DNA of 64,000 nt from an uncultured Fibrobacteraceae bacterium (GCA_964384055.1 CAYLIV010000008.1:25166-89165), one strand, 5' to 3'. Positions 32,257 to 44,586 are shown, counted from the stretch's first letter. The notes: a model not told the origin generated them from the letters alone. Made by a program: numbers and translations.

Positions 32257-33552
32257 TCAGGGCAACAATCCCTGCATGCGATCCTTGTGCACCAGGAAGC
32301 CGAGCATCTTCAGCTTGATGAAGTCGCCGTCGAAGAAGTAGATCCCCTCGAAACGGCCCAGCCGGCTGCTGCGGTTGCTGTCCTTGATCAGGAACCAGTC
32401 GCGGCCGCCGTAGCGCGTGAACCCGACGACGTGGACCCCGTGATCGTCGGTGGTCGTGCCGTTGACGATGCGTAGTTCACGGCTGGCCTGATTGATGTGC
32501 TCGGAGGGAATGTCCCAGCTGGGAATGATCGCCGCGTCCTGTTTGCCGTCGCGGCCGGGTTCGCTGACGTCACCGCCGATGACCACCGAGTAGCCGTCCT
32601 GCACGGCATCCTTGATGACCCGGTAGAACTCGACCAGGGGCAGGTTGTAGTAATCCGTCTTGCGCCGCCAATTGTCCGGTACGTCGAGCAGCACCCAGGT
32701 GTGGAACGGTTCGTCGAGCCGCGAGACGCAGCTGACGTAATCGTCGAGCTCGAGGCGCAGAACCTCGGCCAGGAAAGCCCGTGGATCGTAGGTCGCGCCG
32801 TCCCACTCGACGGTTTCCGGCGGCCGGCCGAGGTGCTTGTCGAGGATCGAACGGACCACGAGTAGATTCTGCGACTCGTCCCAGGTCTTGGTCTCGCGCA
32901 CCCATTCGAGATACCCCTTGAGCTCCTTCATGAGCGGCGCGTGGTCGTGCCAGCCGTTGCGGTTCAACACGCCGGGGTAGGCCGCCGCCGGCACCGCACC
33001 GTACAGCTTGAAGACCTCGAGCGTGCCGTGGTCCTGGCCTCCCTGCGCGACCAGCGAGTGGCCGTACTCGCGCAGATATCGCCGGGCTTTCTCCACGTAT
33101 TCCCAGTAGACGACCCACATCTCCGAGAGCTTGCACTGCACGTCCTGCAGGCGATTGGCTTCGGATTCCAGGAAGGAAACCGAGCAGAAGGCCCAGCAGC
33201 TTCCGGTGTAGTACTGGGCCACCGGCGGTGTGTGCCAGATCTGCTCGAACGCTTCGGGACCGGTCGGCACGTCCACGTCGGACCAGTCGATCCGCAGCTC
33301 GCGCTTCGTGTCGTCGGCCGCTCGCTGCTGCTCGGCATACCGGGCGTCGACGAGCCCCTGCAGAGAATCGCGCTCGGCCTGCCGCTCGTCGCGGTCGTCC
33401 TTGATCGCCTCCAGAATCGGGTATTCGTACTCGGGGACGTAGACCGGATCGTCCTCGCGCTCGGCGGCGCTCGCATCCGGCGCCGGCGTGAAGGCGAACA
33501 GACAGGCGAGCACAGTGGCGATGACCGCCGACTTCGTGTTGGGCAAACCCAT
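32257..33552 (-). CDS. papain-like cysteine peptidase (C1 family), secreted
   Basis: RBS gaggagg before ATG at 33552. Signal peptide MGLPNTKSAVIATVLACLFAFTPAPDASA. Catalytic Cys context QYYTGSCWAFCSVSFLES. His in DHGVHVVGF. The ORF-track N-terminal 193 codons belong to another gene or frame. Confidence 0.75.
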   Translation of the reverse strand: MGLPNTKSAVIATVLACLFAFTPAPDASAAEREDDPVYVPEYEYPILEAIKDDRDERQAERDSLQGLVDARYAEQQRAADDTKRELRIDWSDVDVPTGPEAFEQIWHTPPVAQYYTGSCWAFCSVSFLESEANRLQDVQCKLSEMWVVYWEYVEKARRYLREYGHSLVAQGGQDHGTLEVFKLYGAVPAAAYPGVLNRNGWHDHAPLMKELKGYLEWVRETKTWDESQNLLVVRSILDKHLGRPPETVEWDGATYDPRAFLAEVLRLELDDYVSCVSRLDEPFHTWVLLDVPDNWRRKTDYYNLPLVEFYRVIKDAVQDGYSVVIGGDVSEPGRDGKQDAAIIPSWDIPSEHINQASRELRIVNGTTTDDHGVHVVGFTRYGGRDWFLIKDSNRSSRLGRFEGIYFFDGDFIKLKMLGFLVHKDRMQGLLP

Positions 33553-33596
33553 GAAAACCTCCTCGGCGCCTGGTACCAGCGCGCCAGCCGACGGCG

Positions 33597-34131
33597 TCAG
33601 AACCTGATGACCGAACCCAGTCCGATCAACGACAGGACAAACGCCGCCAGGGTGAAAACGACCCAGCCGATCAGGCAAACCAGAATGGCTCTGCCGGTAC
33701 TCTCGTAGTCCAGCGCCTGGCGGACCGCGATGACCATCGCCACCAGCATCCAGCAATTGGCGACCACGAAGATGAAGAAGCCGATGAGAGGAATGAAAGA
33801 GAAGAGCCGAATCACACCCGGTGCCGCGCTGAATCCAACCGTGCGCAGCACCTGACCCAGGTCCGCTTGCGTGCGGGCGCCGGGCAAGAACCGCGTACCC
33901 ACGAAGAAAATGGTCAGCGACCAGATCAGCCAGCCGACCAACGCCGCCACCGTGCCGCCGATCAGACCGAGCACGCCCCCGGATATGGCGCCGCCGATGC
34001 CGGCGGCGACGCTGGAAAGCGCAACCACGGCCGCAGCCTGGCCGGTCGCCGTCGGCATCGGCCTCCACCTCCTCGTAGAGCAGGGGATCGAGCTTCGCGG
34101 CTCTCATCATCCGGTCGACCAGTTGTGACAT
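33597..34131 (-). pseudogene. Yip1-like multi-pass membrane protein, apparently split by a frameshift near 34058-34070 (or a sequencing error)
   Basis: Frame A from ATG 34131 encodes a Yip1-family-like N-terminus MSQLVDRMMRAAKLDPLLYEEVEAD, then degenerates into Arg-rich sequence. Frame B from ATG 34058 encodes 153 aa with 5 TM helices and high GC3 through to the stop at 33597. Confidence 0.4.
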
Positions 34132-40932: not shown

Positions 40933-42012
40933 ATGCAGAAACGTCGTCTCGCCACAAACCTGCTCAAACTGCTGGCCGCCATTCTGGCGAGCCTGCTGGT
41001 CCTCGAGCTGGGCATCCGCCTGCTGGCTCCCATGGACCATTTTTCGTTCATACCCAACACCTACGATCCGGTGGTCGGCATACGGCAGGTTCCGAACGCA
41101 CGCGGCTTTCTCAGCTGCCCCGAGTACGACATCGAAATCCGGATCAACGCGCAGGGATTGCGCGACCGCGACTATCCCTACGGGAAACCTGCCGGTGTGC
41201 GTCGGATTCTCTGCCTCGGCGATTCCTTTACCAACGGTTTCGGCGTGCATCGCGAGGAGACCTTCGCCACATTGCTCGAGCAGGCGCTCGGCGGATCGCC
41301 GGGCGCGGCGGACGCGGCGGACGTGATCGATGCCTGGGAAGTGCTCAACGCCGGCGTGGCCGCCACCGGTACCGCCCAGCAACTGGCCTACTTCGAGCAC
41401 GAGGGGTATCGCTACGAACCCGACCACGTAGTGCTCGCGGTCAGTCCCAACGATTTCGTGGACAACGCCATCAGCGGTCTGTACACCCGGAACGACGCCG
41501 GACGGCTGATCAAGCATCGCGCCCCGCGCAGCCGGACGCTGAAGCTCCTGCGCTTCACCCGGTACCTGCCCGGTTACACGACGCTCTTCGCCCGCTCCCA
41601 TCTGCTCAACACCATCAAGATGCGTTTCGCCACCCGCCACCACGGCAATCTGGAGGCGGCCAGCCGCAGCGGCGCCGACGAGCGGGCGGCCAGCCGGCGC
41701 AACGTCGAGCTGACGCAGGCGCTGATCACGCGACTCGACGCGGCCTGCGACGAGCGATACTGCCGCTTGACCGTGATGATCATTCCACCGCTGCCGGGCA
41801 GTGGCCTGGTCGAGCGTGAAATGGACGAACTGGTGAACCAGGTGCTGGAGAGCGGTATCCCGTGCCTGGATCTGCGCGCGGATTTCGCGGCACTGAGCGA
41901 GCGCGGCATTGTCACCAATTACCCATACGACGGCCACTGGAACGCCACCGGACACCACGCGGCAGCAGATCGGCTGGTGGAGTTCTTCAGGGGGTCGCAC
42001 GGGACTCGTTGA
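40933..42012 (+). CDS. SGNH/GDSL-like hydrolase (AlgX/AlgJ-like) with N-terminal membrane anchor
   Basis: ATG at 40933 (MQKRRLATNLLKLLAAILASLLVL). Block I RILCLGDSFTNGFG and catalytic block DGHWNATGH. The antisense 409-aa ORF is rejected. Confidence 0.7.
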   Translation: MQKRRLATNLLKLLAAILASLLVLELGIRLLAPMDHFSFIPNTYDPVVGIRQVPNARGFLSCPEYDIEIRINAQGLRDRDYPYGKPAGVRRILCLGDSFTNGFGVHREETFATLLEQALGGSPGAADAADVIDAWEVLNAGVAATGTAQQLAYFEHEGYRYEPDHVVLAVSPNDFVDNAISGLYTRNDAGRLIKHRAPRSRTLKLLRFTRYLPGYTTLFARSHLLNTIKMRFATRHHGNLEAASRSGADERAASRRNVELTQALITRLDAACDERYCRLTVMIIPPLPGSGLVEREMDELVNQVLESGIPCLDLRADFAALSERGIVTNYPYDGHWNATGHHAAADRLVEFFRGSHGTR

Positions 42013-42232
42013 CGGGCGTGAACCTGGTCGCCACGCACAGGTGTTCGCCTACCCGATCGAGGTAGTCGGTCAGTTCGTACGAATCGCCGCAGCCGAGGAG
42101 CCATTCGAGGTTGCTGGGATCCAGAAGCTGCCAGCCGTAGCAGTAGAGATAGTACGCGACGCCCGGGGCGCAGAACTAGCCGGCGCAGAACGGTTCGCCG
42201 CTGAGCAGCGAGCGCGCGGGCCGGAATCTCAT
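41986..42232 (-). pseudogene. small Cys-rich ORF (ancestral ~75 aa) interrupted by an in-frame TAG after codon 18
   Basis: RBS agagga 5 nt before ATG at 42232. GC by codon position on the minus frame is about 62/45/86% across 41988-42230, a canonical coding signature. The TAG at 42177-42179 lies between two copies of the 10-bp direct repeat ggcgcagaac (15-bp period). No alternative start exists downstream of the TAG. Confidence 0.4.
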
Positions 42233-42263
42233 GGGAATCCTCTGAACGAGCAACCATCCACGG

Positions 42264-42971
42264 TCAGGTCACGTTGATCTTCCGCACGACCGCATCGCCC
42301 ATATCACGCAGTGCGCCGGCGGGAAACAACGCCACGAGATCCGCGACCAGCGCCGTGGCGGTCCGGTAGGCCCACTCGGCGACGCCGCGGGAACGCACGA
42401 CGGTGAACCACCTGTCAGCCGACGATGCGTCTCGCGCGATCAAGCCGCGGTCGGCGAGTTGATGCAGCAACGACGTCAAGCCGGCGGCCGGATCCCGAAC
42501 GGCTGTCAGGCGTTCGGGCGCGCGGGACGGGCTGATCGGGCTGATCGGGCTGATCGGGCTGATCGGTGACGACGACCGCGAATGCAGCACTGCATTGCGC
42601 AGACGCAAGAGCAGAACGAATTCCTGGTAGGGTCCGGTCCGGCGATCGTACGGCTCGCCGGCCAGCAAGGTGCGCATGGTCTGGACCTGTGCTATCACGT
42701 TGGCGCGGCTTTTCTCCAGTTCGGCAGCCACCGCTGCGAGTTGCCGCACCGAGGCCGCGACGCCGACCTGCTGCGCCTCGCCGGCGATCAAACACAGTGC
42801 ATCGTTGACGAAGGACTCGATACCGGCCGCCGCGAAAACCACCGTAACGAGATCGCCGTCCGGTGATGGCCGGCTGTCGCGGTGCCCCGAATGCGCCCGG
42901 CGCGCGATCCCGAAGAGCTCGCTGCACGGAAGATCCGCATACGCGGCGTTGTCCGGCTCGCGGTCATTCAT
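42264..42971 (-). CDS. hypothetical protein containing an (SPI)4-5 repeat
   Basis: The start codon forms an ATGAATGA overlap with the malQ stop, indicating translational coupling. GC3 is high (~80%). No recognisable domain. Confidence 0.45.
   Translation of the reverse strand: MNDREPDNAAYADLPCSELFGIARRAHSGHRDSRPSPDGDLVTVVFAAAGIESFVNDALCLIAGEAQQVGVAASVRQLAAVAAELEKSRANVIAQVQTMRTLLAGEPYDRRTGPYQEFVLLLRLRNAVLHSRSSSPISPISPISPISPSRAPERLTAVRDPAAGLTSLLHQLADRGLIARDASSADRWFTVVRSRGVAEWAYRTATALVADLVALFPAGALRDMGDAVVRKINVT
42529..42566. repeat. 9-bp tandem repeat gggctgatc x4.2 inside a CDS, encoding SPISPISPISPISP
   Basis: Read directly from the sequence: cgggctgatcgggctgatcgggctgatcgggctgatcgg. Confidence 0.9.
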
Positions 42972-44586
42972 CTCGACACGCCATATCCACACCCGCGTCG
43001 AGATCGTCGTCGTCCCCTTCTTGGTCCTGCTGGTCGGGCCGGCGGCGGTAGAGCCAGGTCAGCCGCTCGAGACGTCGGCTGTCCACGGTCGCCAGCCAGT
43101 CGGACGCGAGGCGCCAGTCCCAGTTTCCCGACTCCACGCCCGGCTGGTTCATGAATCCTTCACGATCGAGCCCGAGTACATCCTGCATGGTGGCGATGCA
43201 GGTGTGGGCCGGGGACATCATGCCCTGGCGGATCATCGTCCAGTGTGGTTCGGTGACCCGCCGGTCGAGGTACTCCTCGATGAACACGCGGCTCGCGGCG
43301 TCGAGTTCGTCGCGCCACCAGGCCCGCGTCGGCGCGTTGTCGTGGGTCCCGCTGTACACGACGCAGTTGGTCGGATGGCTATGGGGCAGGAAGGTGTTTT
43401 CGGGGTCGCTCCAGGCGAATTGCAGAACCTTCATGCCGGGCAATCCGAAGCGGTCGCGCAGGCGCTCGACACGGCGGGTGATCACACCCAGATCTTCGGC
43501 GATGAAGGGCAGGTCGGTGAAGTGCTCGCCGATGACGGTGAAAAAGTCCGCACCCGGTCCCTGCACCCAGCGCCCGTCGACGGCCGTGCCGGCGTCGCCT
43601 GGTACCTCCCAGTAGGCCTCGAACCCGCGGAAATGGTCGAGCCGGACAATGTCCACCTGGGCAAGACTCGCCCGCAGGCGGTCCAGCCACCACCGGTAAC
43701 CGTCGGCAACCATCCGCTCCCAGTCGTACAGCGGGTTGCCCCAGAGCTGGCCCGTGGCGCTGAAGTAGTCGGGCGGCACGCCGGCCTGCACCTGCAGCGA
43801 GCCGTCGGCGGCGAGCTGGAACTGCCGCTGATTCGCCCACACGTCACAGCTGTCGTGGGCCACGAAGATGGGCAGGTCGCCGATGATCCGGATAGCCCGC
43901 TCGTTGGCGTAGGCCTTCAGTTCGAGCCACTGGGTAAAGAAGATCCACTGCCGGAAACGGTACTCCTTGAGCTGTGCCGCGTGCTGCTCGCCAAGCTGCG
44001 CGAGGGTCGTCGCTTCGGCCCGACGCTCATTCTCGGGCCAGGAAGCCCAGGCGTTGCCGGTGAAACGATCCTTCAACACGCAGTACAGCGCGTAGTGGTC
44101 GAGCCAGCCGGCCTGCTGCTCGCACCAGAGCGCAAAGGCGTCCTTCTGTTCGCCGGTGGCACGAACGACAAAGTTCGTGAAGGCATCGCCGAGCAGATCA
44201 TTCTTGTACTTGATCACCCAGCCGAAGTCCACACGGTCGACGGGGAAATCGGGCGGGTTGTCGAGATCCTGTCGGTCGAGCCAGCCACCGTCGACCAGTT
44301 TCTCGGGGCTGATGAGATTGGTGTTGCCGGCGCACGAGGACAGGGTCTGGTAGGGCGAATCGCCGTAGCTGGTCGGGCCTAGGGGTAGGACCTGCCAGAG
44401 GCTCTGTCCGGTCGTTACCAGCCAGTCCACGAAGGCGTAGGCCTGCGGTCCGAAATCGCCGATCCCGAAGCGTCCCGGCAGCGACGTGGGGTGCAGCAGG
44501 ATGCCGCTGGAACGCGGGAACAGCTCGCTGTGGCTGCTGCCGTCGCCGGCGCTGTCTTTAACGGTATCGCTCATCTCGTTGTTCAT
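42964..44586 (-). CDS. malQ: 4-alpha-glucanotransferase (amylomaltase, GH77)
   Basis: GH77 motifs SSGILLHPTSLPG, GDLPIFVAHDSCDVW, WGNPLYDW, DIVRLDHFRGFEAYWEV, IAEDLGVIT. The 570-aa antisense ORF is rejected. Confidence 0.9.
   Translation of the reverse strand: MNNEMSDTVKDSAGDGSSHSELFPRSSGILLHPTSLPGRFGIGDFGPQAYAFVDWLVTTGQSLWQVLPLGPTSYGDSPYQTLSSCAGNTNLISPEKLVDGGWLDRQDLDNPPDFPVDRVDFGWVIKYKNDLLGDAFTNFVVRATGEQKDAFALWCEQQAGWLDHYALYCVLKDRFTGNAWASWPENERRAEATTLAQLGEQHAAQLKEYRFRQWIFFTQWLELKAYANERAIRIIGDLPIFVAHDSCDVWANQRQFQLAADGSLQVQAGVPPDYFSATGQLWGNPLYDWERMVADGYRWWLDRLRASLAQVDIVRLDHFRGFEAYWEVPGDAGTAVDGRWVQGPGADFFTVIGEHFTDLPFIAEDLGVITRRVERLRDRFGLPGMKVLQFAWSDPENTFLPHSHPTNCVVYSGTHDNAPTRAWWRDELDAASRVFIEEYLDRRVTEPHWTMIRQGMMSPAHTCIATMQDVLGLDREGFMNQPGVESGNWDWRLASDWLATVDSRRLERLTWLYRRRPDQQDQEGDDDDLDAGVDMACRDE

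What the first reader, a model, noticed from the sequence alone, without database searches (positions are those of the whole stretch)
41986..42263. Small Cys-rich ORF with proper RBS and strong codon periodicity, interrupted by an in-frame TAG between 10-bp direct repeats
On the minus strand, an ATG at 42232 is preceded by agagga at optimal spacing. Across 41988-42230 the GC content by codon position is about 62/45/86%, a textbook coding signature. No plus-strand gene covers this interval. Translation gives MRFRPARSLLSGEPFCAG-TAG-FCAPGVAYYLYCYGWQLLDPSNLEWLLGCGDSYELTDYLDRVGEHLCVATRFTPVNESRATP. The TAG sits in the 5-bp spacer between two copies of ggcgcagaac (42167-42176 and 42182-42191; 15-bp period, frame-preserving). 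The residues either side are duplicated (EPFCAG / FCAPG). There is no ATG, GTG or TTG downstream of the TAG. The data are therefore consistent with a recently disrupted small gene (a local duplication or slippage event), with stop-codon readthrough or recoding, or with an assembly artefact. The peptide is Cys/Tyr/Trp-rich and unlike anything I recognise. It lies 31 nt downstream of a malQ-coupled hypothetical gene.
Basis: seen in the sequence. Interest (0 to 1): 0.5.

Follow-up and report, generated by a model that had tools for sequence, protein, structure and literature searches.

The report
Broken orphan mini-gene in lineage-specific insertion
The stop-interrupted small reading frame is real and looks like true coding DNA, but it has no relatives anywhere and sits in a ~1 kb insertion unique to this lineage, so it is most likely a dead orphan gene remnant.

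Summary
On the minus strand there is an ATG at 42232 with a GAGGA ribosome-binding motif, an in-frame TAG at 42178-42176, a TGA at 41989-41987, and GGCGCAGAAC twice on either side of the TAG. Codon periodicity is matched by 1 of 20,000 shuffles. Codon usage is host-like, higher than 99.8% of off-frame chunks. The TAG is not an assembly error: the sequence is identical in contigs from about six sample records built by three pipelines. TAG is an ordinary stop here, ending 9 of 41 long ORFs. No tRNA, Rfam family, stable RNA fold or terminator was found. No credible homologue exists in Pfam, NCBIfam, PADLOC, PHROGs, PDB, a 5.8-billion-protein word search or a full HMMER scan of 1.84 billion representatives. 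The new result is context. Four syntenic relatives have the SGNH hydrolase and malQ genes directly abutting. The roughly 1 kb carrying the orphan 235-aa gene and this ORF is therefore extra DNA in this lineage only. Best reading: a relic coding sequence, now cut by a stop, that can yield at most an 18-residue peptide. Readthrough or recoding is not excluded but nothing supports it. Ordinary, low interest.

The parts
41987..42232 (-). Interrupted small ORF: ATG, 18 sense codons, TAG, 62 sense codons, TGA
   Evidence: Periodicity matched by 1/20,000 shuffles. Codon log-odds 0.405 bits per codon, above 99.8% of off-frame chunks. No gene caller annotated it in any public contig.
42238..42243 (-). 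Shine-Dalgarno-like AGAGGA, 5 nt before the ATG
   Evidence: Similar GAGG/AGGA motifs precede about 9 of 12 called genes in the neighbourhood.
42179..42232 (-). 5' part, 18 codons (MRFRPARSLLSGEPFCAG): the only product expected from standard decoding
   Evidence: Codon log-odds is only 0.18 over this short stretch.
42176..42178 (-). In-frame TAG
   Evidence: Present in all independent assemblies. TAG is a normal stop in this genome.
41990..42175 (-). 3' part, 62 codons with the strongest coding signature and no usable start codon
   Evidence: Codon log-odds is 0.47, equal to the mean of true genes. The only in-frame GTG is at codon 67. A HMMER scan of 1.84 billion representatives gave one non-credible hit. 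AF2 pLDDT is 51.
42167..42176 (.). Copy 1 of the 10-nt direct repeat GGCGCAGAAC (plus-strand reading)
   Evidence: Chance estimate.
42182..42191 (.). Copy 2 of the 10-nt direct repeat GGCGCAGAAC
   Evidence: Not extended beyond 10 nt.
42264..42971 (-). Orphan 235-aa gene. Its start overlaps the malQ stop by 8 nt, and it shares the lineage-specific segment with the small ORF.
   Evidence: Called in 17 public contigs, always in this context. No family or homologue found. AF2 pLDDT 38.8.
41990..43024 (.). Approximate extent of the DNA that is extra in this lineage relative to syntenic relatives. Boundaries are good to a few tens of nt.
   Evidence: blastn homology to L090 stops at window 41966 and resumes at 43025. 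The intervening stretch is 90 nt in L090 and 1058 nt in the window. Protein alignments place the ends in the last ~8 codons of SGNH and the last ~20 codons of malQ.
40933..42012 (+). SGNH/GDSL hydrolase gene, convergent. Its last 8 codons overlap the end of the small ORF.
   Evidence: Pfam PF13472, E = 1.3e-9. Gene calls.
42964..44586 (-). malQ (GH77 4-alpha-glucanotransferase), first gene of the malQ-orphan-small ORF string
   Evidence: Pfam PF02446, E = 7e-171.

Best explanation
The interval is a relic of protein-coding sequence, now non-functional as a full-length protein. It lies inside a ~1 kb piece of DNA that this lineage alone carries between the convergent malQ and SGNH-hydrolase genes.

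Shown:
- The segment holds one apparently intact orphan gene (235 aa, translationally coupled to malQ). 31 nt downstream is this second reading frame, with its own SD and ATG.
- The second frame keeps host-like codon usage and third-position GC.
- It is cut at codon 19 by a TAG that is fixed in the sampled population.

Inferred:
- The region is probably transcribed as the 3' end of the malQ-orphan mRNA.
- Ribosomes that start at ATG 42232 stop after 18 residues.
- The following 62 codons are not translated and are drifting.

Open questions:
- Whether the ORF was once a complete ~76-81-residue gene, or only the 5' fragment of a longer foreign gene truncated at the insertion boundary. Its TGA lies just where ancestral SGNH sequence resumes.
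- Whether the TAG arose by a 15-nt templated insertion or by a point mutation.
For: - Coding signature: periodicity is matched by 1/20,000 shuffles. Codon log-odds is within the true-gene range and above 99.8% of off-frame chunks; the other five frames are negative.
- Real TAG: identical sequence in contigs from about six sample records and three assembly pipelines, including one strain with a SNP nearby.
- TAG is a normal terminator: 9 of 41 long ORFs end in TAG.
- No restart codon: the only in-frame GTG is 15 codons from the end.
- Lineage-specific segment: in L090, L096, L091 and L097 (SGNH 66, 60, 56 and 54% identical; MFS 81% and CDF 79% identical in L090) SGNH and malQ abut, at -11, +13, +52 and +68 nt. 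Neither the 235-aa protein nor the peptide gives a tblastn hit there.
- No homologue of the peptide in any protein resource. No paralogue in the window.
- No gene caller annotates the gap in any public contig.
- Atypical composition for a maintained protein: Cys 6.2% vs 1.1%, no Ile, no Lys. No confident fold.
Against: - No intact homologue was found, so 'pseudogene' rests on coding statistics only.
- Apart from the one TAG the frame is clean: no frameshift and no second stop in 81 codons. It has a good SD and ATG. That is also what a functional gene using occasional readthrough, or a very recent inactivation, would look like.
- All population samples are about 100% identical, so relaxed selection (dN/dS, polymorphic indels) could not be measured.
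- Only 64 kb of the genome was visible, so a suppressor tRNA or pyl genes elsewhere cannot be excluded.
Confidence: 0.65

Rival explanations
1. A functional ~81-residue Cys/Tyr-rich small protein is made by TAG readthrough, suppression or pyrrolysine insertion.
For: There is only one interruption in an otherwise clean, well-signalled ORF. The TAG is fixed in all samples.
Against: TAG terminates 9 of 41 long ORFs in the window. There is no tRNA in the window. There is no stimulatory RNA structure (fold z = +1.28) and no Rfam hit. No homologue shows that the full-length product is maintained. The ORF is absent from all four syntenic relatives.
Confidence: 0.05
2. Only the 18-codon ORF (42232-42176) is the functional unit: a micro-peptide or leader-type sORF at the end of the malQ operon. 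The downstream 62 codons are irrelevant remnants.
For: SD plus ATG at typical spacing. The stop is fixed in the population.
Against: Codon log-odds of the 18 codons is weak (0.18, with one plus-strand frame scoring higher). No gene lies downstream on this strand for it to regulate, because SGNH is convergent. There is no conservation and no homologues.
Confidence: 0.08
3. The interval was never coding: an intergenic spacer whose periodicity and open frame arose by chance in GC-rich DNA.
For: No homologue anywhere. A 62-codon open stretch is not rare at 64% GC. Amino-acid composition is odd.
Against: Periodicity is reached by only 1 of 20,000 shuffles. Codon log-odds exceeds 99.8% of 1,911 off-frame chunks and equals the true-gene mean after the TAG. 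No known process gives non-coding DNA a 60/51/85 pattern.
Confidence: 0.07
4. Assembly or sequencing artefact: the true sequence lacks the TAG and the gene is intact.
For: The TAG sits between short direct repeats, a place where assemblers or polymerases can err.
Against: The sequence is identical in JGI, ENA and Logan assemblies of several samples, including a strain variant. A 10-nt repeat is far below read length.
Confidence: 0.02

Closest known systems
Orphan (ORFan) pseudogene or disrupted CDS in a strain- or lineage-specific insertion
   Same: A coding-type signature is retained, a single premature stop is present, and the ORF lies in DNA absent from syntenic relatives. It is co-located with another orphan gene, and gene callers do not annotate it.
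   Different: Pseudogenes are normally defined against an intact homologue. None exists here in about 1.8 billion representative proteins, so the ancestral product and its length are unknown.
Programmed stop-codon readthrough or pyrrolysine (UAG) recoding
   Same: An in-frame UAG sits inside an otherwise open, well-signalled frame.
   Different: UAG is a common ordinary stop in the same window. No tRNA, pyl gene or downstream structure was found, and there is no conservation of the UAG-containing frame.
Short tandem duplications by replication slippage that create in-frame insertions
   Same: Two identical 10-nt copies lie 15 nt apart, preserving the frame. The inserted-looking 15 nt carries the stop. 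A true 9-nt x 4.3 tandem array lies 350 nt away in the neighbouring orphan gene.
   Different: The 5-nt stretches after the two copies share no bases, so this is not a simple tandem duplication. A filler-containing templated insertion or a point mutation in a pre-existing peptide repeat fits equally well.

Membership tests
Pseudogene (disrupted protein-coding gene) | Reading frame with a statistically supported coding signature | tested here: met
   1/20,000 shuffles; codon log-odds 0.405 bits per codon, above 99.8% of off-frame chunks.
Pseudogene (disrupted protein-coding gene) | A disabling lesion that is real, not a sequencing error | tested here: met
   TAG at 42178-42176 is identical in assemblies from about six sample records.
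Pseudogene (disrupted protein-coding gene) | An intact homologue or parent gene exists elsewhere | tested here: not met
   No credible hit in Pfam, NCBIfam, PADLOC, PHROGs, PDB, the 5.8-billion word-indexed search, the 1.84-billion HMMER scan, viral contigs, 97 fetched loci or the window itself.
Programmed UAG readthrough / pyrrolysine recoding | UAG avoided or reassigned as a stop in the genome | tested here: not met
   9 of 41 long coding-type ORFs in the window end in TAG.
Programmed UAG readthrough / pyrrolysine recoding | Suppressor or Pyl tRNA and pyl genes present | tested here: inconclusive
   No tRNA in the 64 kb window. The rest of the genome is not available.
Programmed UAG readthrough / pyrrolysine recoding | Stimulatory RNA structure or conserved context after the stop | tested here: not met
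   RNA fold z = +1.28, with 179 of 200 shuffles folding as well. Rfam gave no match. No relatives exist to test conservation.
RiPP / Cys-rich peptide precursor | Adjacent modifying enzyme (radical SAM, YcaO, Lan-type and the like) and a recognisable precursor family | tested here: not met
   The neighbours are GH77, an orphan, SGNH, MFS and CDF. No family hit for the peptide.
GH77 (MalQ) N-terminal fragment | Significant similarity to the MalQ N-terminal region | tested here: not met
   tblastn hits to Lachnospiraceae MalQ N-termini reach only E = 0.06. Nothing against the window's own MalQ. An HMM of 82 MalQ N-terminal sequences scores 0.6 bits, and 130 of 2,000 shuffles do as well.
Immunoglobulin V-set-like domain | Consistent, significant alignment to the domain | tested here: not met
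   PDB VH chains reach at best E = 0.005, among thousands of near-identical antibody entries. P0123 reaches E = 3.4e-4 only by summing 8 near-identical repeats, and it aligns to a different part of the Ig fold. Pfam V-set gives no hit.
Structured non-coding RNA / intrinsic terminator | Rfam match, excess folding energy, or hairpin plus U-tract | tested here: not met
HEPN-domain protein (for the neighbouring 235-aa gene) | Rx4-6H motif in a four-helix bundle, plus a family profile match | tested here: inconclusive
   An R125-N-A-V-L-H130 motif was seen by eye, and the AF2 model is all-helical. However, pLDDT is 38.8 and there is no Pfam, NCBIfam or PADLOC hit.

The most novel reading that the evidence does not exclude
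The malQ operon of this uncultured, Anaerolineae-like bacterium has captured a two-gene orphan cassette. Its second gene would encode an ~81-residue Cys/Tyr-rich peptide made only by low-level UAG readthrough or suppression. That would be a conditionally expressed small protein of an entirely new family.
Probability: 0.04. Interest if true: 0.5.

Novelty: new member of a known kind. Interest (0 to 1): 0.15.

Why it matters
It matters little beyond annotation hygiene. It is a clean example of how strong GC3 periodicity in a high-GC genome can flag coding-derived DNA that gene callers skip. It also shows that synteny with relatives can reveal such DNA as part of a recent, lineage-specific insertion. 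If the orphan pair proved functional, it would add a new small-protein family to a sugar-metabolism operon, but nothing here points that way.

Tried and rejected
- Homologue searches for the peptide all came back empty or non-credible. Searched: Pfam, NCBIfam, PADLOC, PHROGs; the word-indexed 5.8-billion search; the full HMMER scan of 1.84 billion representatives; PDB; viral contigs; tblastn against all fetched loci and the window.
- The one HMMER hit, P0123, is a 794-aa protein with eight near-identical Ig-like repeats. Its summed score inflates the significance.
- The PDB antibody-VH hits (best E = 0.005) align a different part of the Ig fold, so I treat them as compositional noise.
- MalQ N-terminal resemblance is rejected.
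- Both metagenome-contig scans returned nothing. One used peptide patterns. The other used a DNA pattern allowing 0-30 nt between the flanks, to catch alleles without the 15 nt. That collection evidently lacks the source contigs, so no allele survey was possible. The pattern itself was valid.
- The 235-aa neighbour gave no homologues: word-indexed search, genome contigs, viral contigs. It is not in the clustered collection.
- Single-sequence AF2 models had too low confidence for fold searches: pLDDT 38.8 for the 235-aa protein and 51.3 for the peptide.
- Reading through the 235-aa gene's TGA gives an Arg-rich frame that looks non-coding (log-odds -0.81). A fused longer gene is therefore rejected.
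- The 122-aa plus-strand ORF 41909-42277 is the antisense shadow frame (GC 85/51/60, log-odds -0.05).
- No transmembrane segment: the maximum 19-residue Kyte-Doolittle mean is 0.87.
- A literature search on the sample and assembly accessions found nothing.

Full report
**1. What is in the sequence**

Reading the minus strand:
- AGAGGA at 42243-42238, then 5 nt, then ATG at 42232-42230.
- 18 sense codons (MRFRPARSLLSGEPFCAG), then TAG at 42178-42176.
- 62 sense codons (FCAPGVAYYLYCYGWQLLDPSNLEWLLGCGDSYELTDYLDRVGEHLCVATRFTPVNESRATP), then TGA at 41989-41987.
- The 10-mer GGCGCAGAAC occurs at 42167-42176 and 42182-42191, on either side of the TAG.
- The ATG is 31 nt after the stop of the upstream 235-aa gene (42264).

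All of this matches the finding. The corrections are small:
- One in-frame GTG exists after the TAG, at codon 67.
- The convergent plus-strand SGNH gene ends at 42012 and overlaps the last 8 codons.
- The repeat is exactly 10 nt, and the 5 nt that follow each copy are unrelated. It is not a clean 15-nt tandem duplication, and TRF does not call it.
- Such 10-mers at short range occur at 7 places in the 64 kb window. The association with the TAG is suggestive, at roughly 2-3% by chance, but not compelling.

**2. Is it more than chance?**

Yes.
- GC by codon position is 60/51/85%, like the window's genes. Only 1 of 20,000 shuffles gives as large a spread.
- A codon-usage log-odds score was trained on 37 long ORFs of the window against their five off-frames. 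It gives 0.405 bits per codon for this frame, and 0.47 for the 62 codons after the TAG.
- That sits inside the true-gene distribution (mean 0.47, sd 0.22). It lies above 99.8% of 1,911 off-frame chunks. The other five frames of the interval score negative.
- SD-like motifs precede about 9 of 12 called genes nearby, so the GAGGA is typical for this organism.
- The interval is therefore coding sequence, or was until recently, and its codon usage is host-like.

**3. Is the TAG real?**

Yes.
- Exact-protein look-ups of the neighbouring genes recovered the same locus from JGI 3300009314, JGI 3300013117, ENA ERZ23498639, ENA ERZ23498983, Logan SRR8062346 and Logan SRR8062320.
- The 278-nt core is identical in all contigs that span it.
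- The ERZ23498983 contig differs from the window by a SNP in the neighbouring gene, yet is identical over 41993-42263.
- Some ENA and Logan records may derive from the same read sets. Even so, there are several samples and three assembly pipelines.
- No pipeline called a gene in the gap.

**4. Is recoding plausible?**

Nothing supports it.
- TAG ends 9 of 41 long coding-type ORFs in the window.
- There is no tRNA in the window and no Rfam match.
- The RNA folds no better than shuffles (z = +1.28).
- No terminator-like or promoter-like site lies in the interval.

**5. Relatives of the peptide**

None are credible.
- Pfam, NCBIfam, PADLOC and PHROGs gave nothing even at E of 1-10, for three reconstructions: TAG deleted, TAG read as Tyr, and one repeat unit removed.
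- The word-indexed search of 5.8 billion proteins gave nothing.
- The index-free HMMER scan of 1.84 billion representatives returned one protein, P0123, at E = 3.4e-4. It consists of eight near-identical Ig-like repeats, so eight weak matches are summed.
- PDB returned antibody heavy chains at E of 0.005 or weaker, aligned to a different part of the Ig fold. These two sets of hits are mutually inconsistent, and I treat them as compositional noise from a peptide rich in C, Y, W and G.
- A weak tblastn resemblance to MalQ N-termini failed a direct test. An HMM of 82 MalQ N-terminal sequences scores 0.6 bits, and 130 of 2,000 shuffles do as well. The window's own MalQ shows nothing.
- AF2 on the 62-residue part gives pLDDT 51.
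- There is no transmembrane segment. Cys is 6.2% against 1.1% in the window's genes, with no Ile or Lys.

**6. The context, which is the informative part**

- MalQ's best genome matches are Anaerolineae MAGs at 59% identity, so no close genome is available.
- Homologues of the SGNH hydrolase led to four syntenic contigs.
- L090 (NCBI GCA_024449895.1) has SGNH 66%, MFS 81% and CDF 79% identical. Its gene order is urocanase, thyX, EEP, CDF, MFS, SGNH, malQ, permease, the same as in the window.
- The other three are L096 (60%), L091 and its sister contig (56%), and L097 (54%).
- In all four, SGNH and malQ are directly convergent, at -11, +13, +52 and +68 nt. Neither the 235-aa protein nor the peptide is detectable there by tblastn.
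- At DNA level, homology to L090 stops at window 41966 and resumes at 43025. The stretch between is 90 nt in L090 and 1058 nt in the window.
- Protein alignments put the boundaries in the last ~8 codons of SGNH and the last ~20 codons of malQ.
- So roughly 41990-43024 is DNA gained in this lineage. With four relatives lacking it, gain is more parsimonious than four losses.
- The segment contains exactly two reading frames, both orphans: the 235-aa gene and the interrupted small ORF.
- No paralogue of the segment is in the window. Its GC, 66.7%, is close to the window's 63.9%.
- The small ORF's TGA lies just where ancestral SGNH sequence resumes. This is also what one would see if the ORF were only the 5' fragment of a longer gene truncated at the insertion boundary.

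**7. Most likely explanation (confidence 0.65)**

- The interval is a relic of coding sequence that came with the ~1 kb insertion. It is now cut by a fixed TAG.
- It is probably carried on the 3' end of the malQ-orphan transcript.
- Ribosomes starting at 42232 would release an 18-residue peptide, and the 62 downstream codons would go untranslated. These last two steps are inferred, not shown.
- The origin of the TAG is undecided. It could be a templated 15-nt insertion (5 nt of filler plus a 10-nt copy). It could equally be a single-base change such as TAC to TAG within a pre-existing FCA-x-x-FCA repeat.

Rivals:
- A functional full-length peptide made by readthrough or suppression (0.05).
- A functional 18-codon micro-ORF (0.08).
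- Never coding, with chance periodicity (0.07).
- Artefact (0.02).

**8. Comparison with known things and verdict**

- It behaves like an orphan pseudogene in a lineage-specific insertion.
- It fails the formal pseudogene criterion of an identifiable intact homologue, so that label rests on coding statistics.
- It fails every tested criterion for UAG recoding, RiPP precursors, GH77 fragments, Ig domains and structured RNA.
The object itself is ordinary: low interest, a new member of a known kind.

Noticed in passing
window 42264-42971 (-): The 'malQ-coupled hypothetical' 235-aa gene is itself an orphan. It has no Pfam, NCBIfam, PADLOC, PHROGs or PDB hit, and no homologue in the word-indexed search or in genome or viral contigs. 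Its start overlaps the malQ stop by 8 nt (ATGAATGA). An R125-N-A-V-L-H130 (Rx4H, HEPN-like) motif was seen by eye only, and a weak MarR-like stretch lies at residues 172-194 (E = 0.21). The AF2 model is all-helical but has pLDDT 38.8.
   Followed up: partly
window 42528-42566: A perfect 9-nt tandem repeat (CGGGCTGAT x 4.3) encodes SPISPISPISPISP in the middle of the orphan gene. This is a true slippage array, only ~350 nt from the 10-nt repeats of the finding. Copy number is the same in all public contigs.
   Followed up: partly
window 42472 (L009, ENA ERZ23498983): This is the only strain difference seen near the finding. A G-to-C change turns Ser167 to Trp in the orphan 235-aa gene, a non-synonymous change.
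   Followed up: yes
window 42964-43024 / 44586: The last ~20 residues of MalQ (QQDQEGDDDDLDAGVDMACRDE) are unrelated to the tails in L090 and L091. They appear to be encoded by the inserted DNA, so the insertion remodelled the malQ 3' end.
   Followed up: partly
L014:6001-8708: In a more distant MAG (malQ 56% identical) malQ is followed directly by the MFS transporter gene (66% identical) with no SGNH gene between them. The SGNH gene may therefore be an older insertion at the same spot.
   Followed up: no
window ~32686-34026: Differences between the window and the ENA contig L002 are concentrated here: 9 mismatches in 1.3 kb plus an alignment break near 33972-34026. The following 11.6 kb has only 4 mismatches.
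   Followed up: no
tools: metagenome contigs vs look-up of encoding contigs: The JGI contigs that carry this locus (3300009314, 3300013117) are retrievable by exact-protein look-up. Neither metagenome-contig scan found them, even with an exact DNA pattern that matches the window. The 235-aa protein is likewise absent from the clustered protein collection, although it is called on 17 contigs.
   Followed up: partly
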